Shown in pieces: positions 3,400 through 14,728 of a stretch of DNA of 64,000 nt. Below the pieces are notes generated by a model. That model worked only from the letters and a program-made list of their open reading frames with translations. It searched no databases and was not told the DNA's origin. The stretch is from a virus. A program made the translations under genes and the position numbers. The stretch covers positions 1 to 64,000 of IMG/VR virus record IMGVR_UViG_3300049893_000773; one strand, given 5' to 3'. Numbering within the stretch: position 1 is the stretch's first letter; every line of letters starts with the position of its first letter.

Positions 3400-3636
3400 A
3401 TGTCAAAGTGGCATAAACGTGTGATTATCCAGGGAAAACTTGGTGAGTTGTCGAAGGTGGAGGAAGAGCTGGAAGAGGCTTTTGACGCTGAGGAGCGAGG
3501 ACAAACGCTTATGCTCCTATTCGAGCTTTCCGACATCATTGGTGCTTGCGGTCTTGTTGCGGCCAAGTACGGCTTGTCGCTGGATGACCTTGTGAAGTTC
3601 TCCAAGCTCAGAAGCGAGGTGGCGAAAAATGGTTGA
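3400..3636 (+). CDS. MazG-like NTP pyrophosphohydrolase (single small domain)
   Basis: KVEEELEEAFDA...ELSDII acidic helical EExxE...ExxD pattern. Confidence 0.55.
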   Translation: MSKWHKRVIIQGKLGELSKVEEELEEAFDAEERGQTLMLLFELSDIIGACGLVAAKYGLSLDDLVKFSKLRSEVAKNG

Positions 3637-4312
3637 CCTGGACCAGTACGTGCGAAACGGCGTCTTCTTCCCGGATCACAAGCTCTCCATGCTTGAAGCG
3701 GACCTCTTCAGGGACATGGAAACGGTCTTGTGTTTCCGGGGTTTTCAATACCTTTCCGTCCCCTCGGTGGTCACCAAGGAGACCTACGAGCGGCAAGGGA
3801 CGATCCCCTGGGAGAAGGTATTCAAGATTGGAGAGGATCATGCTCTGGCCGGTTCCGCAGAACAGGGAATCCTTGAGATGTTCACCGGGAAAACGGTGGA
3901 TCGACTCAGTAAGTTTTACGCCAAGAATCAGTGTTTCAGGAATGAGAACAAGCCCTACGAGGGGTTGAAGCGTCTTCGCGAGTTCTTGAAGATGGAGCAG
4001 TTCCTCTTTGTCCCGGAGGATAGAGCCGAGGAGTTCATGGAGGAATCCATGGGGATCGTTACTGGCTTCCTACAACGTCATCACATCAAATACCGCATTG
4101 TCGATATGACCGAAAAGGACGAGGGCTACCACCTGGAGAAGAAGGACGTTGAGGTTTACACCAAGTCCTATGGCTGGCTGGAGACACACTCCTGTTCCTA
4201 CTTTGGTCATGAGCAGACAAAGCGCTTTGGCATTGACGGTGGAATGACCACGATCAGTAACACCGCAATCGCCTCTCCTCGAATCCTGGTCCCTTTCCTT
4301 GAGCGCGGATAA
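3629..4312 (+). CDS. Seryl-tRNA synthetase-like class II catalytic core lacking the N-terminal coiled-coil arm
   Basis: LAGSAEQ (TxE loop), CFRNE...GLKRLREFLKMEQF (motif 2), DVEVY...ETHSCS, ISNTAIASPRILVPFLE (motif 3). Only 227 aa. Confidence 0.75.
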   Translation: MVDLDQYVRNGVFFPDHKLSMLEADLFRDMETVLCFRGFQYLSVPSVVTKETYERQGTIPWEKVFKIGEDHALAGSAEQGILEMFTGKTVDRLSKFYAKNQCFRNENKPYEGLKRLREFLKMEQFLFVPEDRAEEFMEESMGIVTGFLQRHHIKYRIVDMTEKDEGYHLEKKDVEVYTKSYGWLETHSCSYFGHEQTKRFGIDGGMTTISNTAIASPRILVPFLERG

Positions 4313-11419: not shown

Positions 11420-12283
11420 ATGAGCCACGAAGACCATTTCCCTACCGACCGAGCCGCTCCACGCTACCGTCAACGTTCCCCTTCCATTCTCTACCGAGAA
11501 GGCACCGGACTGATGGAAGACAAGGAGCTTGCTGCTGCCCAGCGGCACTTTGTGACCTACAGGAGCCGCATGACGGTCACAGGCAACGAACTGGTCATTG
11601 GGAGGTATTCGGTGCTCCCTTACTACAGGGAGTTGGAAGCTGACATCTCCTCTGTGGGCGGGAAGCTCATCAACTCCTACAAGCAGCACAGGTACGTGGC
11701 TGATATCCAGAATTACGCTGCGGACCTGGATGAGATGACCCCAAAGACCTGGAGTTGGAGGGAATTCCCCTATCTCCCCGACATGCCGATGGTGCTCAAG
11801 GGAGAAACCAACAGCAAGAAGGACAAGTGGGACACCCACATGTTCGCCCAGACCAAGGAGGATGCCATTGCCGTTTACCAGCGGTTGATGGATGATTCCC
11901 TCCTGTCCCGTCAGGAAATCTACGTTCGGGAGTATATCCCGCTCAAGAAGCTCGGAGTTGGACTCCATGGTCAACCCATCACGGTGGAGTTCAGGTTCTT
12001 CATTCTCCACGGAGAGGTGGTTTCCAGCGGCTTCTACTGGTCAAGCCACCTGGGAGACATCCAAGAGGTCCCCACGCCCTCTATGGTCCCCCAGGGGTTC
12101 CTACGGGATGCTATTGACAAGGTGAAGGACAATGTGAACTTCTTCGTGATGGACGTTGCCCTCACTGAAAGCGGTCGATGGATCGTCATTGAGTTGAATG
12201 ACGGCCAAATGGCTGGGTTGTCCGAGAATGACCCGGATGTCCTGTACGGCAACATGAAGAAGATGCTCTGGAGGAAAGAATGA
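11420..12283 (+). CDS. ATP-grasp protein (R2K/DUF4343-like)
   Basis: EFRFFILHGEVV, FFVMDVA...WIVIELNDGQMAG. Confidence 0.7.
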   Translation: MSHEDHFPTDRAAPRYRQRSPSILYREGTGLMEDKELAAAQRHFVTYRSRMTVTGNELVIGRYSVLPYYRELEADISSVGGKLINSYKQHRYVADIQNYAADLDEMTPKTWSWREFPYLPDMPMVLKGETNSKKDKWDTHMFAQTKEDAIAVYQRLMDDSLLSRQEIYVREYIPLKKLGVGLHGQPITVEFRFFILHGEVVSSGFYWSSHLGDIQEVPTPSMVPQGFLRDAIDKVKDNVNFFVMDVALTESGRWIVIELNDGQMAGLSENDPDVLYGNMKKMLWRKE

Positions 12284-12948
12284 TGGACAATTTGCACATT
12301 GCCCTGCCGAAATGGCCCTGCATGTATGTTCATGGAGCCTCGATCACTGTCGATCAAGCGAAGGAGGTGATCCGTCGAAGTGACTTGTGGTTTCGTGGAT
12401 TGTACGGCTCGGATAACGCTAGGTTCAAAAAGCTGGCGGTTGATTTCGGTTTTAAGCCGCTCGATGGATACTCTTCGGAGGAATTCTGGGCTGCGATGAA
12501 CCGCCGAGAACAGTGGCAGAAGGAATGGGGTTTGCTGGAGGCCGAATACCTGTTTACCGACTGGATCTGTTCCTCATACATTGGCGGCCCCAATGGATGG
12601 TGCAATCCTGATGGAACGATTTACTCGTTTCACAACGTCGGAAAGTGGCCTTCTCCTGAAGGTCTTATTCGGGATTGGAAGAGAGTCGCTGAAGCATTCC
12701 CATTCCTGACGTTGACTGCTGTCATCGGGGACAGGGAGTGTCACGAGAAGGACATTTCCCCGGTTATGCAGATTGAGGTCGCTAACGGCTCGGTCCATAG
12801 TGTGTATCCCCGTCGTGAGCTTTTCCCCATGTACAAGGAGACTGCGATCACTGACGTGCAAAACTGGCCTTCCTGTGGCATTTCAGAGGAGTGGCTCCAG
12901 GAATGGGCTGCTAAGTCAAGAGGGATCTTGACAAGGCTCGGAGGGTGA
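12280..12948 (+). CDS. Hypothetical protein
   Basis: ATGA overlap with the previous gene and an RBS; Trp-rich (GPNGWCNPDG, NVGKWPS). Confidence 0.6.
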   Translation: MMDNLHIALPKWPCMYVHGASITVDQAKEVIRRSDLWFRGLYGSDNARFKKLAVDFGFKPLDGYSSEEFWAAMNRREQWQKEWGLLEAEYLFTDWICSSYIGGPNGWCNPDGTIYSFHNVGKWPSPEGLIRDWKRVAEAFPFLTLTAVIGDRECHEKDISPVMQIEVANGSVHSVYPRRELFPMYKETAITDVQNWPSCGISEEWLQEWAAKSRGILTRLGG

Positions 12949-12961
12949 CCTAGACTACTTA
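12928..12961 (+). promoter_or_regulatory. Overlapping sigma70-type promoter and TACTTA late motif for the RNA cluster
   Basis: TTGACA (12928-33), 17-nt spacer, TAGACT (12951-56); TACTTA at 12956-61. Confidence 0.6.
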
Positions 12962-12969
12962 GTATCAAC

Positions 12970-13321
12970 GGGCGCGACCCGGTTTCGACGTGGATAGCAA
13001 AGGATTGACAGCGTGACGGCAGGCGTTGGTACTGCCATAAAGATTCCGACAAAAACACAAGGCGCTGAAGAAGCCCTCCCTCTCGCTGCTTGATAGCACG
13101 AGACACTGCCTGAGAGCTCTGTTCGGGCGTTCAGAGCAGTGATTCAATCGAACAAGGTTCCCCAAGATGCTTGTGGTAGGGAGAACCGAGATACTACAAG
13201 ATCCTCCCCTGAAAGCCCCCTTGTTGGCGTTTAGACGGAGTACAATAGCAAGGAAGGTCACGTAGGAAAGTTGATTCAGAGGTATTCGCGGACCTGAGTT
13301 CGACTCTCAGCGCGTCCACCA
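12970..13321 (+). ncRNA. ssrA: tmRNA
   Basis: 5' GGGCGCGA...GGTTTCGAC; 3' T-arm CTGAG-TTCGACT-CTCAG, then CGCGTCC-ACCA with a G3:U70 pair. Internal tag ORF ...GAEEALPLAA ends in tandem stops TGA TAG (13061-13096). Confidence 0.92.
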
Positions 13322-13322
13322 C

Positions 13323-13426
13323 GGGTGTGTAGTTTAGAGTATCCCACGATTCTGGCGCCGGAATCTTGGGAGCGGGAGAACGGGGGCCGAAAGCCCCAAA
13401 CGTTGGTTCGAGTCCAATCACATCCA
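13323..13426 (+). ncRNA. Atypical tRNA-like RNA (Ala-type acceptor, hairpin-expanded D-loop, non-canonical anticodon arm)
   Basis: Acceptor GGGTGTG/CACATCC+A; D-stem GTTT/GAAC; arm GGGGC-CGAAA-GCCCC; T-arm GTTGG-TTCGAGT-CCAAT. Confidence 0.7.
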
Positions 13427-13478
13427 CCCATCATTCTCAGCCATGCTTGAGTTACTCTTCAAGTGATTCTGTGCTATC

Positions 13479-13709
13479 TTGCTTATGAAAGGCAAGGTAG
13501 TTGTGAGCGGCAAAAGCGACAAATGCAAGAGTTGCGACTCAGAGATGGTCACGTTTGAAACCCACCAAATGACGATGGATTACACCTCGTGCTATTGGTA
13601 CGAGGATGGCAAGAAAGTTGAAGGCAGTCACTCCGACTTTGGTCTTGGTGGAAGTGATAGCTTCTACATCACCTTCTGTCCCAATTGTGGCAAGGTTGAT
13701 GGTTTCTAG
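13479..13709 (+). CDS. Small zinc-ribbon-like hypothetical protein
   Basis: CKSC...CPNCG; start codon uncertain. Confidence 0.5.
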   Translation: MLMKGKVVVSGKSDKCKSCDSEMVTFETHQMTMDYTSCYWYEDGKKVEGSHSDFGLGGSDSFYITFCPNCGKVDGF

Positions 13710-13721
13710 ATTCAAACCCAA

Positions 13722-13845
13722 GCCGCTGGTTTGGCTTGATTGCGGTTAAAGTGGGTTGGAGGCTACTCGATCCTCCGACCATCATGAGCCAGGGTGATCG
13801 AGGCCCTGGTGGGACCCTAAGACTGCAATCATCTGTTTGGGCGGC
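13722..13845 (+). ncRNA. Putative structured RNA (three-way junction with complementary loops)
   Basis: 11-bp stem 13737-47/13821-31 encloses two hairpins whose loops CTCGAT and ATCGAG are complementary. Confidence 0.55.
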
Positions 13846-13882
13846 AACTAATTTCTCTCCTATCTATGAGATAGAGGCAAAT

Positions 13883-14146
13883 ATGCGTTCCGGTTCTCAG
13901 ACTCGCTACAAGAGGTACAAGATGGGTCACCTTCCAGGTGATCTTCCTCATCAATGCAAGGCGCGTCTCCTGGAGTACAGGGAGGGCAAATCTCTTCCTG
14001 AAGAGGACGAGTGGAGGGTGAAGGGTTTCAAGAAGGACCAACATCTTCGAGCCGAGGGGGCTTTTCGACGTTCAGAGAGGGCTGAGATTGAGGAGTTCCT
14101 GGAGGAAGAGGAAGAGCAAGAGGAACTGGAAGAGAACGCTAGTTAG
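13883..14146 (+). CDS. Small basic/acidic hypothetical protein
   Basis: GAGG RBS upstream of ATG 13883; acidic C-terminus. Confidence 0.5.
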   Translation: MRSGSQTRYKRYKMGHLPGDLPHQCKARLLEYREGKSLPEEDEWRVKGFKKDQHLRAEGAFRRSERAEIEEFLEEEEEQEELEENAS

Positions 14147-14153
14147 AAAACAC

Positions 14154-14226
14154 GGGGCCATAGCTCAGTTGGGAGAGCGCGACAATGGCATTGTCGAGGT
14201 CGTCGGTTCGAACCCGACTGGCTCCA
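14154..14226 (+). tRNA. tRNA-Ala (GGC)
   Basis: Canonical cloverleaf: GGGGCCA/TGGCTCC-A, anticodon arm CGACA-ATGGCAT-TGTCG, T-arm GTCGG-TTCGAAC-CCGAC. CCA is not encoded. Confidence 0.95.
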
Positions 14227-14233
14227 CTTCAAA

Positions 14234-14425
14234 ATGCTGAATTCCGACTTCATCATCAATGGCGGAAGGTGCCGCAAGTACGAGGGGTATACGGCCCCTA
14301 ATCAGTCCAAGGTGGTCACTGCCTTGAAGCTGTTGGTTCTTGCCCTGGTCGTTCCACCATTCGCTCTGACGATGTGTCTCGTGGACAAGCTGAGCAACCG
14401 TAGGAAGAAGCAACTCAAGGGCTAA
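14234..14425 (+). CDS. Small putative membrane protein
   Basis: 63 aa with one hydrophobic stretch and a basic tail. Confidence 0.4.
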   Translation: MLNSDFIINGGRCRKYEGYTAPNQSKVVTALKLLVLALVVPPFALTMCLVDKLSNRRKKQLKG

Positions 14426-14464
14426 TTTGGCAACAAACCAGCTTCTTGCTTGCAGACTAGGCTC

Positions 14465-14728
14465 ATGCAAATTCAATACAACTGGAACGGGATGAAGCGT
14501 GGCCGTCCTGTCAAGCTGATTCGTAATGTGTACAACCGCATGGACGGATCGCCTTATGGCGGGATCTACTACGAGGAGCCGGGGCATTTGATTGCTGAAC
14601 GTGGGTGGATTGGTAGGTTCATTGCAAAGACACCAAAGGGTATCTTGGTGGAGTTCCACACACCAACCGGAGGAGTCCTGGGGTTGGTGCTTGATGAATT
14701 CGCTGTTGAGCTCTATGTACCTGCATGA
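14465..14728 (+). CDS. Hypothetical protein
   Basis: ORF with ATGA overlap into the HNH gene. Confidence 0.5.
   Translation: MQIQYNWNGMKRGRPVKLIRNVYNRMDGSPYGGIYYEEPGHLIAERGWIGRFIAKTPKGILVEFHTPTGGVLGLVLDEFAVELYVPA

What the first reader, a model, noticed from the sequence alone, without database searches (positions are those of the whole stretch)
13323..13430. Ala-identity tRNA-like RNA with a 30-nt hairpin in its D-loop, 1 nt downstream of tmRNA
Seen: a 7-bp acceptor GGGUGUG/CACAUCC with G3:U70 and discriminator A, canonical U8-A9 and a canonical T-arm. The D-loop is ~42 nt and contains a hairpin (UCCCA-C-GAUUCUG-GCGC-CGGAAUC-U-UGGGA, 13342-13371). The anticodon arm is GGGGC-CGAAA-GCCCC: a 5-nt loop, or a 7-nt loop with GAA and no U33. 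Established: G3:U70 plus A73 specify AlaRS charging independently of the anticodon. All three tRNA-shaped RNAs here carry Ala identity. Inference: a chargeable but non-decoding tRNA mimic (nuclease decoy, Ala donor for rescue or tailing, or partner of the SerRS-like core), or a Phe-to-Ala mistranslator. The intact stems argue against simple decay.
Basis: partly seen in the sequence, partly recalled or inferred. Interest (0 to 1): 0.75.

Follow-up and report, generated by a model that had tools for sequence, protein, structure and literature searches.

The report
Non-decoding alanine-type tRNA look-alike beside phage tmRNA
A freshwater T4-like phage carries, one base after its tmRNA gene, a tRNA-shaped RNA gene that keeps the marks for alanine loading but cannot read codons and has an extra hairpin in its D-loop; it is an unusual member of a barely described class of phage RNAs whose job is untested.

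Summary
Window 13323-13426 matches the Rfam tRNA model (40.1 bits, cut-off 29) and lies one base after a full tmRNA (12970-13321, 110.9 bits). It has a 7-bp acceptor with G3:U70 and A73, a 4-bp D-stem, a canonical T-arm and a 5-bp anticodon stem capped by 5 nt. A 30-nt hairpin sits in the D-loop (-15.6 kcal/mol; 0 of 200 shuffles fold as well).

It cannot decode. It is probably a functional, alanine-chargeable tRNA look-alike derived from a tRNA-Ala. Charging, processing and expression are untested.

No diverged homologue was found in 16 related phage tmRNA loci, 72 syntenic loci or 10 whole records, so covariation cannot be tested. Near-identical copies occur in three other freshwater runs, with two structure-neutral changes, although both flanks are rearranged in one of them.

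Anticodon-less alanine-type tRNA look-alikes recur in other phages. One published precedent is the TLD-only tmRNA of mycobacteriophage DS6A. This scan has noted the class many times on other DNA. This copy fails the tmRNA model, so it is a tRNA-type variant, new in its D-loop hairpin. A decaying tRNA-Ala pseudogene remains a serious rival.

The parts
12928..12956 (+). sigma-70-like promoter (TTGACA, 17 nt, TAGACT; 10 of 12) 13 nt upstream of the tmRNA. It is the likely start of a tmRNA + tRNA-like transcript.
   Evidence: No terminator-like site was found on the + strand between 12200 and 14400. This is a consensus match only.
12970..13321 (+). full-length phage tmRNA with a G3:U70 acceptor and an encoded 3' CCA
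   Evidence: Rfam RF00023 110.9 bits, model 1-374. Conserved at 70-94% identity in related phage contigs. ARAGORN misses it.
13322..13322 (+). single-base spacer (C) between the tmRNA CCA and G+1 of the tRNA-like RNA
13323..13426 (+). tRNA-like RNA gene, 104 nt up to discriminator A73. It is followed by CCC, so no CCA is encoded.
   Evidence: RF00005 40.1 bits; cloverleaf MFE; no RF00023 match at E<=1
13323..13329 (+). acceptor 5' strand GGGUGUG, pairing with 13419-13425 CACAUCC (7 of 7 pairs, G3:U70)
   Evidence: The same acceptor occurs in tRNA-Ala(UGC) genes of loci L354/L393 and L396.
13332..13335 (+). D-stem 5' strand GUUU, pairing with 13378-13381 GAAC
13342..13371 (+). 30-nt hairpin inserted in the D-loop: 5 bp, a C.U mismatch, 7 bp including one U.G, and a GCGC loop. 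The nucleotides after it (A13371, then GCGGGA 13372-13377) align with a complete ordinary D-loop.
   Evidence: Single copy in the 87.6-kb record.
13383..13397 (+). anticodon-position arm: 5 G-C-rich pairs capped by the 5-nt loop CGAAA, with no 7-nt anticodon loop
   Evidence: 95% of the ensemble
13402..13418 (+). canonical T-arm (GUUGG, UUCGAGU, CCAAU)
14154..14226 (+). ordinary tRNA-Ala(GGC), the only decoding tRNA in the record. It is conserved in relatives downstream of the tmRNA.

Best explanation
13323-13426 is a real RNA gene derived from a tRNA-Ala. It keeps the tRNA core: acceptor, D-stem, T-arm and the nucleotides that hold the elbow together. The anticodon loop is replaced by a stable 5-nt cap, and the D-loop carries an extra hairpin, so the RNA cannot read codons.

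Inferred steps follow. It is transcribed together with the phage tmRNA from the promoter-like site at 12928-12956. RNase P cuts at G13323, which also leaves the tmRNA with a CCA plus one base. The 3' end is trimmed and CCA is added. Host AlaRS then loads it with alanine through G3:U70/A73, which does not need an anticodon.

Functionally it belongs with the recurrent phage anticodon-less alanine tRNA look-alikes. Its target is not known. By the DS6A precedent it would compete for a factor that binds Ala-tRNA-shaped RNAs, such as components of ribosome rescue, AlaRS, EF-Tu or a host nuclease. The D-loop hairpin would be an added docking or stabilising arm.

Shown here: the shape, the identity marks, the inability to decode, and persistence in close relatives. 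Inferred: transcription, processing, charging and role.
For: (1) Shape and significance: RF00005 40.1 bits; the MFE fold equals the cloverleaf plus hairpin; the hairpin has z -3.98.

(2) All 33 modelled pairs are standard: acceptor 7, D 4, hairpin 12, anticodon stem 5, T 5. The positions known to build the tRNA core read U8, A9, A14, G15, GG before A21, G26, A44, C48, G53, U54, U55, C56, A58, C61 (read; the numbering is established tRNA knowledge).

(3) The acceptor type is a genuine tRNA-Ala type: L354/L393 and L396 tRNA-Ala(UGC) share GGGUGUG...CACAUCCA.

(4) The anticodon arm differs entirely from that of those tRNA-Ala genes yet is a perfect G-C-rich stem. It is therefore not a tRNA-Ala anticodon arm with two loop bases deleted. 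L380 has the same 5-bp/5-nt design.

(5) Persistence: contigs of three other runs hold the element. X2 covers 13078-13496 with 1 difference, outside the element. X3 and X4 show only C13344U (C-G to U.G) and C13347U (the mismatch position). In the X4 contig, 643 nt are inserted upstream and 13445-13707 is replaced by 72 nt, yet 13313-13444 is kept.

(6) The + strand hairpin contains a U.G pair, and the variant adds another. The minus strand folds worse.

(7) Class evidence: among 28 distinct elements that share the 3' pattern, 13 of 19 with G3:U70 lack a 7-nt anticodon loop, against 0 of 9 with A3:U70 (p 0.0008 by sequence, 0.038 by my grouping into families). The Streptomyces-phage family has 6 of 25 pairs with compensatory changes.

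(8) Precedent: the TLD-only tmRNA of phage DS6A and the report that such a molecule inhibits tmRNA (passages of PMC4131195 and PMC11915505).
Against: No diverged homologue was found, so there is no covariation.
- 0 of 16 other phage tmRNA loci carry this element; one, L319, has a different Ala-type element in the same position.
- 0 of 72 ATP-grasp-syntenic loci carry it.
- 0 of 9 other whole phage records carry it.
- There are no BLAST hits in INPHARED or in loci L026-L158.

The closest IMG/VR relative (G006; portal 94% identical over the 409 residues that its contig holds, tmRNA 93.7%) lacks it. The interval between the tmRNA and tRNA-Ala is a hypervariable cassette region.

The two variant positions among close strains match the neutral expectation from the flank divergence (about 2-4 changes in 104 nt, from 2-4% divergence), so they prove little.

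The single-sequence model R1 scores L380 (40.6 bits) no better than an ordinary tRNA-Met (38.0 bits). No specific kinship to other short-loop elements is therefore shown.

In loci not chosen through the 3' pattern, G3:U70 is not significantly enriched among uncalled tRNA-like hits (7 of 19 against 7 of 45, p 0.096).

There are no RNA data. The runs laid were contigs, and the one labelled RNA is probably DNA.
Confidence: 0.5

Rival explanations
1. It is a decaying pseudogene. A tRNA-Ala copy in the phage's tmRNA-tRNA array lost its anticodon loop and picked up a palindromic insertion. It is neutral baggage in a fast-turning cassette region and survives only in a young lineage.
For: It is absent from all diverged relatives. 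The region 13322-14153 differs between relatives. More distant relatives have ordinary tRNAs right after the tmRNA: L284 tRNA-Pro and L347 tRNA-Leu. ARAGORN rejects it. The known copies differ by only 2 nt, so there has been little time for decay to show.
Against: All 33 pairs and the core tertiary positions are intact. The anticodon arm is a new, perfect G-C stem and not a damaged tRNA-Ala arm. The element is kept in X4 although both flanks are remodelled. Similar designs in other phages are under structural selection.
Confidence: 0.28
2. It is only a processing signal. The tRNA shape is kept because RNase P cleavage at its 5' end sets the 3' end of the tmRNA (CCA plus one base). The released RNA has no role of its own, and G3:U70 is inherited and incidental.
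For: There is a one-base spacer after the encoded CCA of the tmRNA. A promoter-like site lies before the tmRNA, and there is no terminator-like site between the two genes. The acceptor and T-arm, which are what RNase P needs by established knowledge, are the most canonical parts. L319 also has an acceptor/T-arm element 2 nt after its tmRNA.
Against: 15 of the 17 tmRNA loci, the window's included, manage without such an element. In the X4 contig the element is separated from the main body of the tmRNA by 643 nt and is still kept. This reading does not explain the conserved D-stem, the core nucleotides or the stable stub.
Confidence: 0.12
3. It is a decoding tRNA after all. It would read Phe codons with a 4-bp stem and the 7-nt loop CCGAAAG and insert Ala, or it would become functional after removal of the D-loop hairpin.
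For: GAA sits in the middle of the loop. G3:U70 would give Ala charging.
Against: The loop would have C at position 33, where U is nearly universal. The C-G pair that must open is closed in 95% of the ensemble. Removing the hairpin would not repair the anticodon loop. The hairpin has no bulge-helix-bulge shape, and no Rfam ribozyme or intron model matches it.
Confidence: 0.03
4. It is not an RNA gene. It would be a chance tRNA-model match, or a DNA-level element such as a palindromic protein-binding or recombination site left by cassette exchange.
For: The centre of the hairpin is a DNA palindrome (GGCGCC). The site is a recombination hot spot.
Against: The tRNA-model E-value is 1.7e-8 for the record. 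The element lies on the same strand as the tmRNA and in register with it. U.G pairs make the + strand fold better than the minus strand. The hairpin is single-copy.
Confidence: 0.05

Closest known systems
Canonical bacterial/phage tRNA-Ala, for example the tRNA-Ala(UGC) genes in IMG/VR loci L354/L393 and L396
   Same: The acceptor stem is identical (GGGUGUG/CACAUCC with G3:U70) and so is A73. The D-loop content after the insert is the same kind, as are the T-loop and the overall cloverleaf.
   Different: There is no 7-nt anticodon loop and no NGC anticodon. The D-loop has 42 nt and holds a 30-nt hairpin. The D-stem is GUUU/GAAC instead of GCUC/GAGC. ARAGORN does not call it.
TLD-only (CDS-less) tmRNA of Mycobacterium phage DS6A (Hudson et al. 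2014, PMC4131195; Nawrocki et al. 2025, PMC11915505; both cite Mao et al. 2009, which I could not read)
   Same: Both are phage-encoded with an alanine-type acceptor and a T-arm. Both lack an anticodon and a message, so both would act outside normal decoding.
   Different: The window element has a D-stem and a stem at the anticodon position, where SmpB sits on a TLD (PMC4131195 passage). It gives no match to the tmRNA model at E<=1. It lies next to a complete tmRNA of the same phage.
Other phage anticodon-less Ala-type tRNA look-alikes seen here: L380 and L356 (short-loop cloverleaves), L363 and L368 (no anticodon arm), the 77-78-nt element of Streptomyces phages such as EGole (MK494112), and the 78-nt element after the tmRNA in L319
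   Same: All have G3:U70, A73, a canonical T-arm and no usable anticodon. All lie in tRNA or tmRNA clusters. L380 has the same 5-bp stem with a 5-nt loop.
   Different: None has a D-loop hairpin. Specific homology to the window element is not shown, because R1 scores them like ordinary tRNAs. The Streptomyces-phage and L319 elements lack a D-stem, and the tmRNA model scores the Streptomyces-phage element only below its cut-off (36.5 bits).
Phage T4 small stable RNAs RNAC and RNAD from the T4 tRNA region (PMC3014915, one passage read)
   Same: They are small non-tRNA RNAs made from the tRNA gene region of a T4-type phage, and their roles are unknown.
   Different: The idea that they have tRNA-like ends is my recollection and comes from no call.
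Archaeal tRNAs with non-canonical introns in the D-arm (recalled, no call)
   Same: An extra helix interrupts the D-loop region of a tRNA gene.
   Different: Those introns are excised at a bulge-helix-bulge motif by an archaeal endonuclease. This hairpin has only a 1x1 mismatch, and the host is bacterial because a tmRNA is present. Excision would still leave a 5-nt anticodon loop.

Membership tests
tRNA (Rfam RF00005) | Score at or above the curated gathering threshold | tested here: met
   40.1 bits against 29
tRNA (Rfam RF00005) | 7-bp acceptor, 4-bp D-stem and 5-bp T-stem with a 7-nt T-loop | tested here: met
tRNA (Rfam RF00005) | 7-nt anticodon loop with U33 and a readable anticodon | tested here: not met
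   The loop is the 5-nt CGAAA. The alternative 7-nt reading has C33 and needs a G-C pair to open.
tRNA (Rfam RF00005) | D-loop of ordinary size (about 7-11 nt) | tested here: not met
   42 nt with a 30-nt hairpin
tRNA-Ala identity set (AlaRS substrates) | G3:U70 wobble pair in the acceptor stem | tested here: met
   G13325 pairs with U13423
tRNA-Ala identity set (AlaRS substrates) | A73 discriminator and a G1:C72, G2:C71 context | tested here: met
   Position 4:69 is U:A.
tRNA-Ala identity set (AlaRS substrates) | Actual aminoacylation with alanine | not testable with these tools
   This needs an in vitro charging assay or acid-gel/periodate tRNA sequencing.
TLD-only / CDS-less tmRNA (DS6A type) | Recognised by the tmRNA covariance model through its two ends | tested here: not met
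   RF00023 on the whole record at E<=1 finds the tmRNA (110.9 bits) and tRNA-Ala(GGC) (25.5 bits) but not 13323-13426. True TLD-only elements in L027-L030, L037 and L352 score 65-70 bits.
TLD-only / CDS-less tmRNA (DS6A type) | No D-stem and no anticodon-position stem, so that SmpB can occupy that space | tested here: not met
   A 4-bp D-stem and a 5-bp stub are present. The feature is taken from a PMC4131195 passage.
TLD-only / CDS-less tmRNA (DS6A type) | SmpB binding and inhibition of trans-translation | not testable with these tools
   This needs binding and reporter assays.
Intron-containing tRNA (archaeal bulge-helix-bulge type, or a known ribozyme or intron) | A bulge-helix-bulge motif at the insert, or a match to an Rfam intron or ribozyme model | tested here: not met
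   The hairpin has one 1x1 mismatch only. No such Rfam match was found at E<=10 in 12900-14500.
YrlA / bacterial Y RNA-like tRNA mimics (RF02553) | Match to the Rfam model | tested here: not met
   No RF02553 match in the window at gathering or at E<=10 around the site.
T4 RNAC/RNAD | Sequence or structure similarity to the T4 RNAs | not tested
   No T4 sequence was fetched. Only a review passage was read.

The most novel reading that the evidence does not exclude
The element is a working, alanine-charged, non-decoding tRNA whose D-loop hairpin is a purpose-built docking arm. Made from the same transcript as the phage's own tmRNA, it would act with or against ribosome rescue, for instance by engaging a host factor that recognises Ala-tRNA-shaped RNAs while the phage tmRNA does the tagging. 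That would define a tRNA-type branch, separate from TLD-only tmRNAs, of the phage anticodon-less alanine RNAs. It would also be the first tRNA-shaped RNA I know of with a structured arm grown out of the D-loop; that last statement rests on recall and on literature, which found none.
Probability: 0.2. Interest if true: 0.7.

Novelty: new variant of a known kind. Interest (0 to 1): 0.42.

Why it matters
Phages repeatedly keep small RNAs that look like the alanine-accepting half of a tRNA but cannot read codons. Only one case (DS6A) is mentioned in print, and none has a demonstrated role in infection. This copy differs from the tmRNA-derived minis because it keeps the whole tRNA core. It shows that ordinary tRNA-Ala genes can also be turned into non-decoding alanine acceptors, and that extra structure can be grafted onto the D-loop without breaking the core. 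Its position one base after a complete phage tmRNA makes it a handy test case. One precursor could be used to test RNase P processing, AlaRS charging, and any effect on trans-translation. If it proves to be a pseudogene, it still documents how tRNA arrays behind phage tmRNAs turn over.

Tried and rejected
Searches for homologues that found nothing:
- megablast and blastn of the region against 50,697 phage records
- The search for related loci with the window-only ORF 12280-12945
- exact or gapped patterns of the element in IMG/VR
- blastn of the element against loci L026-L158
- model R1 on 10 whole records and on 72 syntenic loci

One search was wasted: my tmRNA pattern had one N too many. One search corrected it.

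tRNA-Val origin. The 3' 22-mer is identical to tRNA-Val(CAC/GAC) genes in the 5 sampled loci, out of 118 genome contigs matches, which are mostly gut alphaproteobacterial MAGs. Those genes have A3 where the element has G3. I dropped this as diagnostic once genuine phage tRNA-Ala genes with the full GGGUGUG/CACAUCC acceptor turned up.

Specific kinship with L380, L356 or L319. R1 scores them (40.6, 35.8 and 21.3 bits) in the range of ordinary tRNAs, so no claim is made.

Enrichment of G3:U70 among uncalled tRNA-like hits, in loci not selected by the pattern: 7 of 19 against 7 of 45, p 0.096. This is not significant, and the uncalled set contains obvious chance hits.

A remnant of the element in the closest relative G006: local score 31 against a shuffle mean of 17.9 (highest shuffle 36), and the global alignment is uninformative. 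Rejected.

Repeat family or MITE: the hairpin is single-copy.

Expression: all four runs laid were contigs. X9, labelled RNA, is probably DNA and covers only 13290-13321 and 13488-13713, so nothing can be said about transcripts or ends.

Fetching the DNA of closer relatives. Exact look-up of four neighbouring proteins found none in the collection. Their DNA, and the X3 and X4 contigs, could not be read. Supplementary files of papers were not consulted; those of the tmRNA database papers may list more TLD-only phage entries.

Literature. Searches found no paper describing a tRNA-like RNA with a D-loop hairpin or this element. Mao et al. 2009 is not in the library.
Full report
WHAT IS THERE. The window is part of an 87.6-kb IMG/VR virus record estimated at 25% complete. 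It has a T4-type portal, a Gp23-type capsid protein and a T4-type large terminase. The nearest isolate by portal protein is Microcystis phage Mel-JY01, at only 40.8% identity. Rfam finds three RNA genes on the + strand:
- a full tmRNA at 12970-13321 (110.9 bits), ending in an encoded CCA
- a tRNA-model match at 13323-13426 (40.1 bits; gathering 29)
- tRNA-Ala(GGC) at 14154-14226 (63 bits)

These are the only tRNA-shaped genes in the whole record. ARAGORN reports only the tRNA-Ala.

ANATOMY.
- The acceptor is GGGUGUG/CACAUCC with G3:U70, and A73 is present.
- U8-A9 follows, then the D-stem GUUU/GAAC.
- The D-loop has 42 nt and holds a 30-nt hairpin at 13342-13371.
- G26 precedes a 5-bp G-C-rich stem closed by the 5-nt loop CGAAA.
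- A 4-nt variable region leads into a canonical T-arm.

The thermodynamic fold of the whole element is exactly this cloverleaf plus hairpin (-41.5 kcal/mol, z -2.44). The hairpin alone gives -15.6 kcal/mol, and none of 200 shuffles folds as well. The opposite strand folds worse, at -11.7, because the + strand uses a U.G pair.

By standard tRNA numbering (established knowledge), the nucleotides that build the tRNA elbow and core are all present: U8, A9, A14, G15, a GG before A21, G26, A44, C48, G53, U54, U55, C56, A58 and C61. In an alignment with related tRNA-Ala genes, the bases just after the hairpin (A, then GCGGGA) line up with a complete ordinary D-loop. The extra material therefore behaves as an insertion of about 30-34 nt into an otherwise normal D-arm.

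The hairpin is not a repeat family; it is single-copy in the record. No Rfam ribozyme, intron or Y-RNA-like model matches it.

IT CANNOT DECODE. The loop at the anticodon position has 5 nt. The alternative 7-nt reading with GAA requires opening a G-C pair that is closed in 95% of the ensemble of the isolated arm. It would also put C where U33 is nearly universal. Removing the hairpin would not change this.

ORIGIN. An exact 22-base match of the 3' part picked up tRNA-Val genes of gut Alphaproteobacteria that have A3 instead of G3. A broader pattern scan of IMG/VR was more telling. Genuine phage tRNA-Ala(UGC) genes (L354/L393, L396) carry exactly the same acceptor as the window element. A tRNA-Ala(GGC) gene (L386) carries the one-pair variant GGGUUUG/CAAAUCC. 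The element is therefore best read as derived from a tRNA-Ala. Its anticodon arm shares nothing with those genes but is a perfect stem. This argues against a tRNA-Ala arm that merely lost two loop bases.

RELATIVES. Seven IMG/VR contigs have portals 70-94% identical. More relatives came from a tmRNA-end pattern and from the conserved ATP-grasp gene just upstream.

In this phage group the order ATP-grasp, tmRNA, then tRNA genes is common. ARAGORN finds a tmRNA in 11 of the 72 ATP-grasp loci. Several of these tmRNAs are followed by ordinary tRNAs: L284 tRNA-Pro about 27-30 nt after, L347 tRNA-Leu 55 nt after, and L289 and L294 tRNA-Met about 300 nt after.

Homology between the window and its nearest relatives covers the tmRNA up to 13318-13321. 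It resumes only at 13708-13734 and at the tRNA-Ala. Of 17 tmRNA loci of the group, the window's included, only the window and L319 have a tRNA-like element directly after the tmRNA. The L319 element is different. It has 78 nt, a GGGUUUG acceptor with G3:U70, A73 and an encoded CCA, no D-stem and two small hairpins. A covariance model of the window element found nothing comparable in 10 whole records or in the 72 loci.

His refutation clause, no homologues with compensatory changes, is formally met for now.

CLOSE STRAINS. Public runs from freshwater sediment and freshwater hold near-identical DNA. Contigs were laid on the window.
- X2 covers 13078-13496 with one difference, which lies outside the element.
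- X3 covers 13285-13756 with two differences.
- A 15-kb contig of X4 carries the element with the same two differences.

The two differences are C13344U, which turns a C-G pair of the hairpin into U.G, and C13347U, which is the unpaired mismatch position. In X4, 643 nt are inserted in place of 13294-13312, and 13445-13707 (the small zinc-ribbon-like ORF) is replaced by 72 nt. The block 13313-13444 is kept.

This is mild evidence for retention. Two neutral changes in 104 nt are also about what the divergence of the flanks (2-4%) predicts.

THE WIDER CLASS. One search extracted 28 distinct elements that share the 3' pattern (U70 and A73 by design) and have a 7-of-7-paired acceptor.
- All 9 with A3:U70 are ordinary Lys, Arg or Tyr tRNAs.
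- Of the 19 with G3:U70, 3 are ordinary tRNA-Ala, 3 have other odd or non-Ala anticodon arms (L370, L383, L390), and 13 have no 7-nt anticodon loop.

The difference gives p 0.0008 by sequence. After my own grouping into families it is 7 of 12 against 0 of 6, p 0.038. These counts are not free of relatedness, and the pattern fixed U70.

The 13 include:
- short-loop cloverleaves: L380, with the same 5-bp/5-nt design (tRNA model 45.3 bits), and L356
- an element without an anticodon arm: L363 (L368 is similar but has one acceptor mismatch, so it is outside these counts)
- a 77-78-nt element of Streptomyces phages

The Streptomyces-phage element occurs in 62 GenBank records. It is unannotated between tRNA-Val and tRNA-Leu in phage EGole. 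Six of its 25 pairs show compensatory changes, while the acceptor and T-arm never vary.

In loci not chosen through that pattern the enrichment is not significant.

The logic is simple. AlaRS reads the acceptor stem and not the anticodon (established knowledge). An alanine-type tRNA can therefore lose its anticodon and remain chargeable.

LITERATURE AND EARLIER NOTES.
- Hudson et al. 2014 (PMC4131195, passages read) list "Mycobacterium phage DS6A (TLD only)". They state that a similar molecule strongly inhibits tmRNA, perhaps by titrating SmpB, citing Mao et al. 2009.
- Nawrocki et al. 2025 (PMC11915505, passages read) repeat this and add CDS-less plastid tmRNAs.
- A T4 review (PMC3014915, one passage) notes that RNAC and RNAD from the T4 tRNA region have unknown roles.
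- This scan has already reported the class of phage anticodon-less alanine mini-RNAs on many other genomes. Those notes agree with what I found independently here.

The window element is not of the tmRNA-derived kind. The tmRNA model gives no match to it at E<=1, although it scores even the neighbouring tRNA-Ala at 25.5 bits. The element also has stems where SmpB would sit.

MECHANISM. A sigma-70-like site (10 of 12) lies 13 nt before the tmRNA. No terminator-like site follows on the + strand up to 14400. I therefore infer one transcript.
- RNase P cutting at G13323 would release the tmRNA with CCA plus one base and free the 5' end of the element.
- CCA must be added to the element, because CCC follows A73. 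The phage's tRNA-Ala(GGC) also lacks an encoded CCA.
- Charging by AlaRS is expected from G3:U70, A73 and G2:C71.

What the charged or uncharged RNA then does is open. The DS6A precedent suggests competition for a factor of ribosome rescue, but the tRNA-type shape fits EF-Tu, AlaRS or a tRNA-directed host nuclease at least as well. None of this was tested.

VERDICT. My estimates are:
- 0.50 for a functional, non-decoding, alanine-type tRNA look-alike
- 0.28 for a young pseudogene
- 0.12 for a mere processing signal
- 0.03 for a decoding tRNA after all
- 0.05 for no RNA gene at all

It is a new variant of a known, barely described kind. The D-loop hairpin and the full tRNA core are the new features. 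Interest is moderate, because the class is already on record and this copy has no diverged relatives to test.

Noticed in passing
L319:5479-5559 (IMGVR_UViG_3300016665_000666): A second phage of the group has a 78-nt Ala-type element 2 nt after its tmRNA and before tRNA-Leu(GAG). It has a GGGUUUG/CAAAUCC acceptor with G3:U70, A73, an encoded CCA and a canonical T-arm, but no D-stem and two small hairpins. ARAGORN uses its 3' end for an alternative, longer tmRNA call.
   Followed up: partly
L405:1666-1745 (Streptomyces phage EGole MK494112, about 87963-88042); also L361, L365, L369, L372, L377, L379, L400: An unannotated 77-78-nt alanine-type tRNA look-alike lies between tRNA-Val(UAC) and tRNA-Leu in Streptomyces phages (62 GenBank records match the region). 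Six of 25 pairs show compensatory changes, and the acceptor and T-arm are invariant. The tmRNA model gives 36.5 bits, below its cut-off.
   Followed up: partly
L027:9436-9516, L028:12595-12675, L029:11102-11182, L030:10170-10250, L037:11214-11294; L352:1298-1377; L007:1501-1612 (LR756508): These are message-less tmRNA-like genes of 78-112 nt. They match the tmRNA model end to end (58-70 bits, above the cut-off of 47) and have a G3:U70 acceptor and A73; most have an encoded CCA. They are TLD-only forms in several uncultured phages.
   Followed up: partly
L380:5797-5864, L356:1785-1857, L363:10152-10210, L368:14223-14287: These are tRNA-Ala-type genes with a normal D-arm and T-arm. Their anticodon loop is 5-6 nt (L380, L356) or the anticodon arm is missing (L363, L368). 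The tRNA model gives 45.3, 41.5 and 38.2 bits for L380, L363 and L368; L356 is listed only under the tmRNA model (35.1 bits). ARAGORN gives no call for three of them and 'tRNA-???' for L356.
   Followed up: partly
L383:1961-2044, L390:1756-1832, L370:1923-2003: These tRNA genes have the alanine-type GGGUGUG/CACAUCC acceptor (G3:U70) but non-Ala or odd anticodon arms. L383 is a Tyr-like type II tRNA with GUA. L390 has an 11-nt loop and is called Val(GAC). L370 has an extended stem and is called Leu(CAA). They could be mis-identity tRNAs.
   Followed up: no
window 11420-12283 and 12970-13321; loci L277-L348: The R2K-clade ATP-grasp gene (Pfam R2K_3, 74.5 bits) sits just upstream of the tmRNA. 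This order recurs in related phages. ARAGORN finds a tmRNA in 11 of the 72 ATP-grasp loci, usually 100-300 nt after the gene.
   Followed up: partly
window 12280-12948: A 222-aa ORF without a Pfam match lies between the ATP-grasp gene and the tmRNA. It is absent from relatives G001 and G002, where about 40 nt separate the two homologous blocks. This is a second strain-specific cassette next to the tmRNA.
   Followed up: partly
window 13294-13312 and 13445-13707, in run X4: A 15-kb contig of another freshwater sample has 643 nt in place of the last part of the tmRNA T-arm/acceptor region. It has 72 nt in place of the zinc-ribbon-like ORF 13479-13709. The inserted letters could not be read.
   Followed up: no
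window 3629-4312: A 227-aa ORF matches only the class II aminoacyl-tRNA synthetase core domain (Pfam tRNA-synt_2b, 51.5 bits, residues 69-203). It is a stand-alone core without tRNA-binding extensions. No link to the tRNA look-alike was found.
   Followed up: partly
window 12970-13321: ARAGORN does not report the window's tmRNA, although Rfam scores it at 110.9 bits. Read by eye, the tag frame ends in ...ALPLAA followed by two stop codons.
   Followed up: no
window 13353-13359: The top of the D-loop hairpin reads U-GGC-GC, which contains the alanine anticodon GGC next to a U. The loop is only 4 nt in the best fold (6 or 8 if pairs open), so no anticodon-loop geometry is possible. This is probably a coincidence of the GGCGCC palindrome.
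   Followed up: partly
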